A stretch of DNA of 64,000 nt from Eledone cirrhosa. Its lineage: Eukaryota. The translations under genes and the position numbers were made by a program. Positions 57,759 to 62,780 of the stretch are shown piece after piece (positions within the stretch are counted from its first letter, which is position 1; each line of letters begins with the position of its first letter). The stretch covers positions 1-64,000 of the forward strand of contig CAXHJY010001109.1 of the NCBI GenBank assembly GCA_964016885.1. The letters run 5' to 3'. A model generated the notes under the pieces. It had not been told where the DNA came from. It made no database searches and saw only the letters and a program-made list of their open reading frames with translations.

Positions 57759-58370
57759 TTTCCTAGAGTGCTTAAAATTATTTGTGACTAATCCCGGTCT
57801 TTTTTTTTTAAACCGCGATAATATTGCTATTTTGCTGAACTCCTTACATTTTGTAGAGTTTTTTCGGAATGTTTTTGACTGCTGTTTCCTGTAAATAGAC
57901 ATTCGTCTCATTCTGACGTCACCAGCCATGTCTCTCCATGTGTGTTTATTTTTATAATTCCGCACGAGGTGGACTAGCCTGCTTTTAAATTCCCTTTTTG
58001 GCATATTCTTGCATTGGTTTAGAGTTATCGTGTTTGAGCTCTACTGATGAACGACTCCAACCGTGACCAGCCCCACTGAAAAGTTTCGTGAAATAGTCTT
58101 TTTAAGACTATATAGAGCATTTGTAGTTTTTCCAAATTGAAGGATTAGTATTTAAGCTTTATTTGATTCTGAGTTAAGACTCTATTGGTTTTTCCCTGGA
58201 ATTCACAAAATCTGTGGATAAAATCTCTGTCTTGATTTTTTTTTTTTTAATCGAGTTTGAATTATTTTCCCATATCTTACGTTAATTATTTTCCATTTTG
58301 ACGTTATAGTCACTTATATATTATGAAATACTGTTGGCTTCTTGCTCACAATAATTTCTATATTTTCATA
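57759..58370 (+). mobile_element. ~610-bp non-coding element with a canonical HHR, copy 1
   Basis: Same start (ttcctagagtgcttaaa) and end (..cat then TA tract) as 62169-62780. Confidence 0.8.
58038..58118 (+). ncRNA. Type I hammerhead ribozyme with stable stem III
   Basis: gctcta CTGATGA acga..tcgt GAAA tagtctt-ttt-aagacta TA^ tagagc. Confidence 0.9.
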
Positions 58371-58459
58371 TATATATATATATATATATATATATATATA
58401 TATATATATATATATATATATATACATATATATATATATATATATATATATATATATAC

Positions 58460-59081
58460 ATGTAAGTATGCATGTATACGTACATACATATATGTATACA
58501 GACGTACAGTAGCATGCACATATATATATATATATACATATATATATACATATGCATACAGGTACACATACATATATGCACGTATCAGTTTAGCGGCGCT
58601 TATTATAACGTCGCTTTGTTCGTTTGTAAACAAACTGAACAGCCTGAATTTATGCCATACGGTGTTAAGGCAACCACGTCACCTTTTTGTTCAACACTGA
58701 CACAGGAACGATGTACTAGTTTCAAGCTTGTTAGCTATCATCAGCACCGTTTACCCATCTGCCAGATAGTTGAACGTTCGAAAGTATATACTTTCCTTAT
58801 GAAAATTAACGGCTGAGCAGCCTAATTTGCATATTGAGTGAGTTAAATCGGTCAGGCATACCGAAAACGATAAATTGAAACAAATTCAGGCTGTTCAGTT
58901 TGTTTACAAACGAACAAAGCGACGTTATAATAAGCGCCGCTAAACTGATACGTGCATATATGTATGTGTACCTGTATGCATATGTATATATATATGTATA
59001 TATATATATATATATATATGTGCATGCTACTGTACGTCTGTATACATATATGTATGTACGTATACATGCATACTTACATTT
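58460..59081. mobile_element. Second locus of the 478-bp HHR family, with a fold-back inversion
   Basis: 58460-58884 is nearly identical to 18563-18993; 58882-59081 is inverted. Confidence 0.88.
58707..58751 (-). ncRNA. Minimal type I hammerhead ribozyme
   Basis: Identical to 18816-18860. Confidence 0.88.
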
Positions 59082-61850
59082 CAGGTAACTGACCTTGTGG
59101 GCTTATTTTTAATCAATTCGCTACATGGGAAAATACCTGGTACTACCGGAGGTTTATATAGGGATGACATGCTTTTACTTATTAATAATAATAACCCTGA
59201 ACTAAATAGAAAATGTAAACAAATTACAAAATTTTTTAATTACTTTAACCTTAAAATAGAAATTGAGAACAACCATAGAATAGTCAATTTCCTAGATATA
59301 ACATTAAATCTCAACACATGTCTCCACTATCCTTTTCACAAGTTGAATGAAAACTTAAACTATGTCAACTTTAACTCTAACCACCCCAGATCTGTCAAAA
59401 ACACTATAGTAAACTCAGTTCAAAAACGTATCTCTAGGATCTCGTCGAATAGAAAGATTTTCGACGAAAAGGCCCAATACTATAATGAAGCACTAGCTAG
59501 GGCAGGATATGCTGATAAGATTGTGTACATAGATAATGATAGACAAACTAAACAAAGTAACAACTTTTTTAATTACGGCAACAACATTAACAACTATAAT
59601 AGAAAGCATTACAATAATTCCAAAGGACAAAAAAGAAATAGAACTAGGAACATAATTTGGTTTGCCCCCCCCCCTTTCTCACTAAACATTAAAACCCACA
59701 TCGCTAAATTATTTTTCAAAGCTCTTGATAATCGCTTCCCTAGAACACATAGGTATCACCCAATTTTCAATAGGCATACAATTAAATTAACCTACTCATC
59801 CACCAAAAATTTAGCACAAAATATTAATAGAATAAATAATAGGAACTTAAAACCTACTGATAATAGCATAAATAATATACAAGTTAACAAATGTAACTGT
59901 AGAGATAGATCTAAATGTCCGTTAAATAACAACTGCTTAGTTAAAAATATAGTATACAATTGTAATGTTAATACTGACTCTAATTCTTTTAACTACGTCG
60001 GTTCCACATCGACGGAATTTAAACTTCGCTATAATAACCACAAGAATTCTTTCACAGATCCAAGTAAAAAATCTTCAACGGCACTATCAGGCGTACTCTG
60101 GCAACTTAAGCTAGATAACGTTAGATATTCGACGGCTTGGAATATAGTCTCAAGAGGGATCCCTTTTAATTCATCCTCTGAGACATGTGACCTCTGCGCA
60201 GAGGAGATATTCTTTATACTAAAATCTAAAAATTCCCTTAACCTACGGACAAATTTATTCAGTTGTTGCAAACATAGATTAAACTCAACGTTTAAATATA
60301 AATTTAAATTTAAAATGTAGTATATTTAGTTTGATTTATATTTATATGGGAAACTAGCCGATAAATTTTTGATTCCTAAATCTTTGATTCCTTCTTTTTA
60401 CTCTTTTTTTATTGTTTATTTTTATTTTATTTTTATCTAAACATTCCTCATGAAAAATTAAGCTACCCTAAAAGCTGATGCTCCAAATTTTTTGAATAAA
60501 CCTTGCACTAGATAAACTTCTATATTAAATATAAGAACATATGTAGACATAATTGGACATCATAATCTTTTTGAAATGATCTTTGCTAGATGTGATTTGA
60601 TAGATAATTTTTGGCTTTGTCTTGTAATGAACTTGGCAATATATTGTCAATTAACTTTGAAGGGTTGATCTTTGTGGTTTATTTTTATTTTTATTTTTAT
60701 TTTTATTTTTATTATTGTAGTATTCTATAATATTTTTTGTATTTCTTTAATATGTAAATTTTTAATACGTAATATTTTTTAATACGAAGTATGTTTAATA
60801 TATAATATTTTTATTATGTAATATTCTTTCGTAATATTTTTTTAGTTTTCTATTCTATATTTTTACTTATTATTATTATTGTTATCTTTTTATTTTTAGT
60901 TTTGTTTATGATATATATTTTTATTAGTATATTGAAATCTGCTCTCTATTTCTGCTTGATAGATAATCTTGTAGAGTAATGACAGGAATAATAATACACA
61001 TATTTGTATGCTCAAATTTTTATACCACATTGAGAATGTTTTCCGTGAAATTAGAGTTTGCAGAGTGAATCAGTTGGATTCGCATGGATGTTTGTAGCTG
61101 TCACATAAACATATGAATTTTTTAAAACTAAACATAAGATAATTAATTTTCACACATTATGGATACTTGTCTCATTCAGGAATACTGATATTTACAATAT
61201 AGTGTAAGTTTTATAAATACTAATACATTAAAACATAGGGTTTTTACGCCTCGAATATATCTGGCTATTTTTAAATTTTTTTTCTCTCGCTATTTTTTTT
61301 CCTCTCTCTATATTTTTTCTCTCTATATACTTGAGCTAAATAAATAAATAAATAAATAAACGTATCATTGATACATTTACTCAAAATGACCTCCCACTAC
61401 CTAATTTTCTATATATATATGTATCTATCTCTATTTCCTCTCTCTCTATATATATATCTCTTTCTGTTTCTTTACATGAAGTTCTTCGCTTTATCTATCT
61501 TTCCATCTCTCTATTTTGTTCCATGCATTTCCTCTTTCTCTTCTTTTTCTTCCTTTTCTTCGTTTTCTGTTTTTCTTTCTGTTTTCTCTCTTTCTTTCTC
61601 TCTGTGTAAAATTTTCTCACTGCCAGCTTAAACCTCTTCAAATGAAGTCGGTGTTATAACGGTATGTCGAATCTATTTATCTATAAAACTGTTTATATTG
61701 TATTTTGTCTGATGAAGGCATAGCATATTGTTAATATGATATCCCCGAAATATATATAATGAAATAAATATGGTTTTATAAATATAGTTTTCCATTTATT
61801 TAATATTTAATATTGTAATATACTCCAAATATGTGTCGAGTGCTTTTATA
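59082..61850 (+). mobile_element. 5'-truncated Penelope-like element (ORF 59097-60320, long AT-rich 3'UTR/pLTR)
   Basis: GLYRDD, NFLDITL, SNHP, IIWF.PPFS, CNC..CPL, IVYNC..YVGST..FKLRY, CDLC. Confidence 0.92.
61701..61766 (+). ncRNA. Type I hammerhead ribozyme in PLE pLTR
   Basis: tattttgt CTGATGA agg..catatt-gtt-aatatg..ccc GAAA TATATA TA^ atgaaata; base of stem II imperfect. Confidence 0.75.
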
Positions 61851-62168
61851 TCAGTTATAAATGTTTACTAGTTGTAACCCAACAATTTTAAATATAACTT
61901 TCCATACATATATATATATATATATATATATACACATATACACACACACACACACACACACACACACACGTGTGTGTGTACAAGCATACACATACACACA
62001 CACATACATACATTCACACAAACATACAACGTACATACACATACATGAATGCACTCCACTACATATTCACACACGCAAATAAATATAAGAAAAAAATATA
62101 TAAATATATATTAACAAATTTTTGACAGCGATACATGCCCCAGCTAATTTATATTTATACTCGGATTC

Positions 62169-62780
62169 TTTTCCTAGAGTGCTTAAACTATCTGTGACTA
62201 ATCCCGGTTTTTTTCATAAAAACTGTGATAATTATTGCTATTTTGCTGAACTCCTTTGTAGAGTTTTTTTTTCAGAATGTATTTGACTGCTATTTCTTGT
62301 AAATAAACATTCACTTCCATCCTGACGTCACTAGCCCCGTTTTTTCCTCGTGTGCTTTTTCATAAATACACATGAAGGCGAACTAGCCAGTTTTAGAATT
62401 CCCTTTTTCGGATTATATTACTGTGAGAGCCCTGGTTTTCTGTTGAGCTCTGCTGATGATTGAAATTCCAACCGTGACCATCTCCACTGAAAGTTTTCAT
62501 GAAATAGTCTTTTAAGACTATACAGAGCATTTGATGTTATTCCAAATTGAAGGATAAGTGTTTCAAACTTTATTTTATCATGAGTTAAAGGTCTATAGAT
62601 TTTCCCTGGATTTTACTAAATTCTGTGGATGAATTTATATCCTGATTCTCTTTTGAGATGAGTTTGAGTTATTTTTCCTAAATCTTTCGTTAACTACTTT
62701 TCCCATCTTGACGTTATAGTCGCATATATGTTATAGAATGCCGTTAGCTTCTTGCTAAAACAATCTCTATACCTCTCATT
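62169..62780 (+). mobile_element. ~610-bp non-coding HHR element, copy 2 (diverged)
   Basis: Colinear with 57759-58370. Confidence 0.8.
62447..62528 (+). ncRNA. Type I hammerhead ribozyme with stable stem III
   Basis: gctctg CTGATGA ttgaaa..tttcat GAAA tagtctt-tt-aagacta TA^ cagagc. Confidence 0.9.

What the first reader, a model, noticed from the sequence alone, without database searches (positions are those of the whole stretch)
57759..62780. Discrete ~610-bp element with a full-length HHR supported by covariation
Seen: two diverged copies share both ends and keep the HHR core. Stem I changes A-U to G-C (gctctA/Tagagc vs gctctG/Cagagc) and stem II changes C-G to U-A. Stem III is a stable 7-8 bp hairpin, unlike the minimal HHRs. 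The large stem II loop (ccaaccgtgacca..ccactgaaa) is conserved. Inference: selection on a monomer-active ribozyme, with the loop perhaps making tertiary contacts.
Basis: partly seen in the sequence, partly recalled or inferred. Interest (0 to 1): 0.75.

Follow-up and report, generated by a model that had tools for sequence, protein, structure and literature searches.

The report
Hammerhead retrozyme copied past its cut
These two repeats are copies of a 631-base non-coding repeat found at thousands of places in this animal genome; it carries a conserved, predicted self-cutting RNA motif, and its copies run straight through the predicted cut site, as expected if a Penelope-type jumping-gene enzyme likely copies it from an RNA circle.

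Summary
The hammerhead is real: intact core, predicted cuts after 58112 and 62522, and stem I covariation at two pairs across six subfamilies. The 'discrete 610-bp element' is not: the unit is about 631 bp and forms head-to-tail arrays. At least 2,268 intact cores exist. The 3' end is fixed at (TA)n (55 of 57 loci); the 5' end is random. This is a non-LTR retrozyme, a known class. In 58 young insertions, lengths decay exponentially with no stop at the cut site, which rules out cut linear monomers as the main template and fits a circle or uncut multimer. A Hydra-clade Penelope-like element with the same insertion anatomy lies between the copies but shares no sequence. Stem II support is weak: one CpG-type pair, and A-U or U·U at its base. 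The long loop II may pair with a strand 5' of stem I, on one compensatory event. Monomer activity, RNA and circles are untested. This scan noted other retrozyme families in this genome; a look-up by sequence found none like this one.

The parts
57759..58369 (+). Copy 1: retrozyme unit lacking its first ~20 nt; older subfamily (92-96% to its nearest copies)
   Evidence: 97.1% to its subfamily majority
58038..58118 (+). Type I hammerhead of copy 1: stem I 58038-43/58113-18, core 58044-50 and 58090-93, stem II 58051-54/58086-89, stem III 58093-58100/58104-11, predicted cut after 58112
58063..58076 (+). 3-bp hairpin at the tip of loop II in copy 1; its loop (58066-69) is the candidate pseudoknot strand
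   Evidence: 95% of cells paired, no covariation
58022..58029 (+). Candidate pseudoknot partner (58022-25) and 5' strand of helix P0 (58026-29) in copy 1; both carry mismatches in this copy
   Evidence: inferred
58368..58576 (.). (TA)n-rich target tract at the fixed 3' end of copy 1
62150..62780 (+). Copy 2: one whole 631-bp unit of the young subfamily (98-100% to dozens of copies), 3 more matching bases upstream
62447..62528 (+). Type I hammerhead of copy 2: stem I 62447-52/62523-28, core 62453-59 and 62501-04, U·U at the base of stem II (62460/62500), stem III 62504-10/62515-21, predicted cut after 62522
62433..62436 (+). Candidate pseudoknot strand of copy 2, complementary to 62477-62480 in the loop II hairpin
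   Evidence: inferred
62781..62970 (.). (TA)n target tract at the fixed 3' end of copy 2
59081..61905 (+). Separate insertion: 5'-truncated Hydra-clade Penelope-like element (ORF part 59082-60320, minimal hammerhead core at 61709); candidate helper family
58577..58956 (-). Separate insertion: 308-bp element with a minimal hammerhead (core at 58744 on the minus strand) and a 75-bp inverted arm, sitting in the TA tail of copy 1
57053..57760 (+). Separate element: fragment of a second Penelope-like family, its last ~39 nt inverted, abutting the 5' end of copy 1

Best explanation
This is a 631-bp non-coding tandem-repeat unit with a conserved type I hammerhead motif and a fixed 3' end in (TA)n, a non-LTR retrozyme that is likely transcribed, predicted to cut itself into unit-length RNA that likely closes into a circle, and likely pasted back by a Penelope-like reverse transcriptase. 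Shown: unit, arrays, copy number, no ORF, fixed 3' end 258 nt downstream of the cut site, random 5' ends, copies that cross the cut site, conservation and stem I covariation. Inferred: (1) multi-unit transcripts self-cleave, probably as monomers since stem III is long, at a modest rate that depends on peripheral contacts (about 55%); (2) monomers are ligated into circles (about 65%); (3) a Hydra-clade Penelope-like protein nicks (TA)n and starts reverse transcription at one internal, TA-like site of the RNA (about 70%); (4) it falls off at random, about 2.5 times per kb, going round the circle when it stays on, which gives fragments, single units and partial tandems; (5) long arrays are further reshaped by duplication in DNA.
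For: Arrays up to about 12.4 units, spacing 628-633. 1,315 exact matches to the young subfamily's 3' end and 2,268 to core plus stem III, controls 0. 55 of 57 loci chosen by ribozyme or body, not by 3' end, stop at the same site before (TA)n (two loci are fetched twice). 58 young insertions: 25-3,630 nt, 31 longer than the 258 nt to the cut site, 12 longer than one unit, 1 within 10 nt of a cut site; drop-off 2.72, 2.52 and 2.06 per kb before the cut, after it and in the second unit; KS against exponential p=0.54. Lead piece and full unit share locus-private variants in 8 of 33 loci and are closer to each other than to other loci (0.0075 vs 0.025; 0.051 vs 0.065). Longest ATG frame 45 codons; circular fold z=-4.2, linear z=-4.5. 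The neighbouring 4,011-bp element has a 738-aa ORF with DKT, CxCX5C, CxxC and CxH motifs of the Hydra clade, partial tandems, fixed 3' end in (TA)n and its own hammerhead. The cycle is the one proposed in PMC7229834; internal initiation is shown for a Poseidon element in PMC11167929.
Against: No cleavage, RNA or circle was observed. An uncut multimeric RNA gives the same length pattern, and PMC11167929 found uncut RNA to be the main substrate in vitro. No sequence similarity to either Penelope-like family tested (best hits 20-26 nt, E>=0.002), whereas the 2026 preprint reports pLTR homology for 24 of 57 Xenopus families. The active fold is not the lowest-energy fold and the consensus fold prefers a rival hairpin over stem II. 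One amplifying variant lacks the 10.1 base altogether (L123, L133, L134). Period-2 and -3 arrays have diverged end units, which points to duplication in DNA. Inverted second arms, common in Penelope-like insertions, occur in only 2 of 58 and 2 of 57 loci. Eight of nine Xenopus retrozyme dimers did not cleave in vitro (preprint).
Confidence: 0.75

Rival explanations
1. Same element and helper, but the template is an uncut linear multimer from source arrays; the ribozyme serves another step (releasing transcripts, or protein-assisted late cleavage).
For: Gives the same exponential lengths. PMC11167929: ribozyme mutants still insert in vitro. Marginal stem II.
Against: Locus-private variants shared by both pieces of an insertion in 8 of 33 loci and a 599-bp spacing in all units of one array need many uniform source arrays. 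The ribozyme is kept under selection. No pile-up of 5' ends at a start site.
Confidence: 0.3
2. The unit is the terminal repeat (pLTR) of an autonomous Penelope-like element, seen here as solo or truncated copies.
For: Same anatomy as the Penelope-like element beside it; copy 1 abuts a Penelope-like ORF fragment; 20 of 190 loci hold such ORF pieces.
Against: Those ORF pieces lie at varying distance and orientation, mostly beyond TA tracts, and from several families; wherever an insertion exceeds one unit it continues into another unit; no similarity to two families. Only two of many families were tested.
Confidence: 0.07
3. A satellite or SINE-like repeat spread at the DNA level, with a hammerhead that is a dead relic.
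For: Higher-order periodicity inside long arrays, including units with broken cores (L112, L135).
Against: Dispersed on many contigs with one fixed end and random 5' truncation; ribozyme more conserved than the rest with compensatory changes.
Confidence: 0.05
4. Loop II is conserved not for a pseudoknot but as a damper or a protein-binding motif: its 3' part can pair with the 3' strand of stem II and G12, or with a site near unit position 130, and a similar 12-nt motif recurs near the unit start.
For: Rival hairpin in the consensus fold (columns 117-119/126-128) with probability 0.33-0.37 in both copies; a 7-bp helix kept in 6 of 6 subfamilies; near-copy of the loop motif invariant in 6 of 6.
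Against: The loop base that changes between subfamilies changes together with the upstream strand, while the near-copy does not change.
Confidence: 0.35

Closest known systems
Metazoan non-LTR retrozymes (coral, mussel, axolotl; PMC7229834, parts 2-4 of 6 read, supplement not readable; bioRxiv 10.64898/2026.07.22.740005, parts 1-3 of 5 read)
   Same: Tandem non-coding units, one type I hammerhead each, GC 33%, self-paired predicted circle, Penelope-like elements in the same genome; U·U at the base of stem II as in axolotl HHR_Amex2.
   Different: 631 nt against 170-400 nt in the 2020 paper (inside the 51-972 bp range of the preprint); stem III of 7-8 bp against 1-2 bp; loop II of about 30 nt with its own hairpin; fixed 3' end in (TA)n; no pLTR homology found.
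Hydra-clade Penelope-like elements (PMC8557442, section 11 and passages read)
   Same: (TA)n target, partial tandems with a 5'-truncated lead copy, hammerhead upstream of the 3' end.
   Different: No ORF; long rather than minimal stem III; inverted 5' arms rare.
Non-autonomous Chlamys elements such as MRC1 (PMC8557442, passage read)
   Same: Non-coding, multi-copy head-to-tail insertions attributed to a Penelope-like helper.
   Different: Those mostly lack hammerheads and share 3' sequence with their helper.
Pseudoknot-stabilised hammerheads (PMC3088659, passages read) and long-helix-III type I variants of fungal and protist PLEs (PMC4209133, passages read)
   Same: Watson-Crick contact between the stem I and stem II regions (about 40% of hammerheads in that survey); long helix III allowing monomer cleavage.
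   Different: Here the contact would start from a hairpin inserted in loop II and reach a strand just outside a three-way junction; support is one compensatory event.

Membership tests
Type I hammerhead ribozyme | Core CUGANGA, GAAA and NUH triplet in order (numbering recalled) | tested here: met
   Both copies, AUA triplet; 2,268 genome matches, control 0
Type I hammerhead ribozyme | Stems I and III pair; stem I open | tested here: met
   96.5% and 98.7% of cells paired; two covarying pairs in stem I; stem III does not covary
Type I hammerhead ribozyme | Stem II closed by a pair next to the core (usually G10.1-C11.1, recalled) | tested here: inconclusive
   3-4 pairs form, but 10.1/11.1 is A-U in 24, unpaired in 18 of 43 rows, never G-C; U·U also occurs in a weakly active axolotl hammerhead
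Type I hammerhead ribozyme | [quoted passage not shown] | tested here: inconclusive
   Candidate pair G-C 82, A-U 15, G-U 11, mismatch 6 of 114 loci, 40 units not parsed; 18 other helices of >=4 bp pass a similar test
Type I hammerhead ribozyme | Self-cleavage | not testable with these tools
   Needs an in vitro assay
Non-LTR retrozyme | Head-to-tail units each with an intact type I hammerhead | tested here: met
   L141 has 12 intact ribozymes in a row, L143 five
Non-LTR retrozyme | Non-coding, no LTR pair, GC under 50% | tested here: met
   Longest ATG frame 45 codons, GC 33%; primer-binding site and polypurine tract were not searched for
Non-LTR retrozyme | Expressed as unit-length linear and circular RNA | not testable with these tools
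Non-LTR retrozyme | Target-site duplication | tested here: inconclusive
   Most insertions have TA repeats on both sides, so a duplication cannot be read
pLTR of a Penelope-like element | Joined to an RT/GIY-YIG ORF at a fixed position, or homologous to such a repeat | tested here: not met
   190 loci and two families; other families untested
Hydra-clade Penelope-like element (neighbour at 59081-61905) | C-terminal endonuclease, DKT, RWK-like, CxCX5C, CxxC and CxH motifs, (TA)n target, hammerhead | tested here: met
   Motifs read in the 738-aa ORF (RWR for RWK) against the text; no tree built; unit is 4.0 kb against 'generally <3 kb'; Pfam has no hit; Atlas look-alikes 0.98

The most novel reading that the evidence does not exclude
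A retrozyme whose hammerhead uses an undescribed extended fold (hairpin inside loop II forming a Watson-Crick pseudoknot with a strand beside a three-way junction on stem I) to work as a monomer despite an unpaired stem II base, and whose thousands of insertions record a Hydra-clade Penelope enzyme rolling round a ligated RNA circle from one internal start site.
Probability: 0.3. Interest if true: 0.7.

Novelty: new member of a known kind. Interest (0 to 1): 0.5.

Why it matters
How animal retrozymes get back into DNA is proposed but, in the papers read here, not shown. This family gives a quantitative footprint (fixed internal start, memoryless fall-off, no stop at the cut site), a near-identical young subfamily, and an intact candidate helper protein in the same genome, so circle versus uncut multimer can be tested in a tube. 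The ribozyme is missed by Rfam, so such families are undercounted, and its periphery may be a new way to stabilise a hammerhead.

Tried and rejected
Rfam: nothing on the two ribozymes. Sequencing runs: no RNA holder listed among 6 runs; contigs of four runs laid on the unit show presence in organism A and only short pieces in B and C, and say nothing on expression or circles. Dimer-circle idea (alternating live and dead ribozymes in L112, L135): rejected as evidence because end units are more diverged than inner ones and L083 alternates two intact cores. A second pseudoknot candidate (GTTG with CAAC) covaries in two copies but is mismatched in others: not pursued. One search used a structure string one column off for the pseudoknot and P0; one search is the corrected count, in which the six young-subfamily rows are still offset by one column for these two helices. 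Chimera of copy 1 with the upstream Penelope fragment as proof of the helper: one case only. Telomere-like words in subfamilies 5, 8, 9: treated as chance. Supplement of PMC7229834 and paper PMC5785218 could not be read; both may show similar ribozymes.
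Full report
Observation. Rfam does not detect it. The host is a 3.0-Gb, TA-rich animal genome; 'cephalopod' is my impression and the wording of earlier notes, and was not tested.

The unit. Searches of the genome with each copy gave 3,969 and 2,195 first-look candidates, 40 scored each. Many hits are preceded, 20-22 nt upstream, by a 3' piece of another unit, and arrays reach about 12.4 units. The unit is about 631 bp. Exact patterns count 1,315 young 3' ends and 2,268 intact core-plus-stem-III motifs, reversed controls 0. Copy 2 is one whole unit of the young subfamily; copy 1 belongs to an older one and lacks about 20 nt. The longest ATG frame in a natural dimer is 45 codons.

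Ends. I took the first 60 loci, in order along contig C1, from the 100 listed matches, and dropped L070 and L071 because their arrays ran past the fetched stretch; L114 and L115 share a flank and were both kept. All end at the same motif by selection; the independent test is, where 55 of 57 loci chosen by ribozyme or body end at that site (two loci duplicated). The site lies 258 nt downstream of the cut and resembles the (TA)n target. 5' ends are spread from unit position 36 to 607. Lengths fit an exponential (p=0.54): 31 of 58 pass the cut site, 12 exceed a unit, 1 ends within 10 nt of a cut site, and the drop-off rate is 2.72, 2.52 and 2.06 per kb in successive stretches. A linear monomer cut at both ends would cap copies at 258 nt, so it is not the main template. 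A circle or an uncut multimer both fit. Shared private variants between lead piece and full unit in 8 of 33 loci (5 of 14, 3 of 18, 0 of 1) lean towards a circle without proving it. Long arrays show period-2 or -3 patterns with diverged end units, best read as later duplication in DNA.

The ribozyme. 214 units fall into six subfamilies plus eight singletons; majority sequences are 70-94% identical. The ribozyme region is more conserved than the rest (64 of 83 vs 318 of 588 columns). On 44 selected rows, 43 distinct, stem I has two pairs changed on both sides, stem III is 98.7% paired but does not covary, and stem II has one covarying pair (C-G 29, U-G 3, U-A 5) whose two changes are both CpG-type; its base is A-U or unpaired. 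Rows are related, so counts are not independent events. Constrained folding puts the active form 3.3 and 2.3 kcal/mol above the best fold, and a rival hairpin uses the 3' part of loop II. A long stem III removes the usual need for dimers (PMC4209133, passages), but the axolotl hammerhead with the same U·U cleaved only 22% in an hour as a monomer (PMC7229834). Monomer activity is therefore open.

Periphery. Loop II holds a 3-bp hairpin whose loop is complementary to four bases about 11-15 nt 5' of stem I. The middle pair is G-C in 82, A-U in 15, G-U in 11 and mismatched in 6 of 114 loci; 40 units were not parsed. Next to it a 4-bp helix P0 (U-A 19, A-U 15) would close a junction with stem I and a 5-bp hairpin. 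Against: each rests on one branch; subfamily 5 mostly keeps three of four pairs, part of subfamily 2 breaks another; P0 is mismatched in subfamilies 1 and 3; and 18 helices of four or more pairs pass a similar test somewhere in the unit. Pseudoknots between stems I and II are common in hammerheads (PMC3088659, passages). I put this contact at about 45%.

Helper. The ORF between the copies belongs to a young family (98-100% protein identity over 101 scored hits) with a 4,011-bp unit and a 738-aa ORF that carries the motifs listed for the Hydra clade, which targets (TA)n. It forms the same partial tandems and has a minimal hammerhead near its 3' end. It shares no real sequence with the retrozyme, nor does a second family. 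ORF pieces in 20 of 190 retrozyme loci are unrelated neighbours in the same TA tracts. Internal initiation is shown for another Penelope-like element, where uncut RNA was the main substrate (PMC11167929, parts 1-2 of 4).

Comparison and novelty. The element meets the sequence-level definition of a non-LTR retrozyme (PMC7229834 parts 2-4; preprint 10.64898/2026.07.22.740005 parts 1-3; PMC7761336 passages); expression and circles are untested. Searches for 'hammerhead ribozyme'+'octopus', 'cephalopod'+'Penelope'+'ribozyme', 'retrozyme'+'target-primed'+'truncated' and searches listed no paper on this family or on such length statistics; I judged most of them from listings only, and one supplement and one paper were unreadable. 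Earlier notes of this scan describe other retrozyme families in the same genome with a similar reading, mostly two-armed; this family is mostly one-armed, and a look-up by sequence found nothing.

Verdict. Real, a new family of a known class, with useful evidence on mechanism and a possibly new ribozyme periphery. Interest 0.5.

Noticed in passing
window 2166+, 4887-, 18853-, 19330+, 55561+, 58744-, 61709+: Seven further hammerhead motifs with minimal palindromic stem III, several with U·U, A-U or A·C at the base of stem II; one more weak descriptor hit at 37265-.
   Followed up: partly
window 18686-18993, 19190-19497, 58577-58884: Three 100% identical copies of a 308-bp hammerhead element, two of them back to back; probably a second, very young retrozyme family.
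   Followed up: partly
window 57784-57795 and unit start of all six subfamilies: A 12-nt motif invariant in six subfamilies nearly repeats the loop II sequence of subfamilies 8, 9 and part of 5; could be a promoter or protein site.
   Followed up: no
window 57914-57921 and 62323-62330: Palindromic TGACGTCA (CRE-like, name recalled) kept in four of six subfamilies.
   Followed up: no
L123, L133, L134: An amplifying variant lacks the base after the core, leaving the U before GAAA unopposed.
   Followed up: no
L211-L212 (G000:C7:78449500-78468400): Head-to-tail array of about 3.3 near-identical 4,011-bp Penelope-like units with intact ORFs.
   Followed up: partly
L232-L242, downstream of the ORF: The second Penelope-like family runs into long TG/TA repeats after its ORF, with no hammerhead core in the 1.5 kb held.
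   Followed up: no
window 45029-46915 and 39957-40923: A 29-bp array of 65 copies at 98% and a 14-bp array of 69 copies; the first lies inside a 1.17-kb inverted repeat pair (43426-44594, 51875-53043).
   Followed up: no
L146, L148: Arrays whose units are all 599 or 641-642 bp instead of 631.
   Followed up: partly
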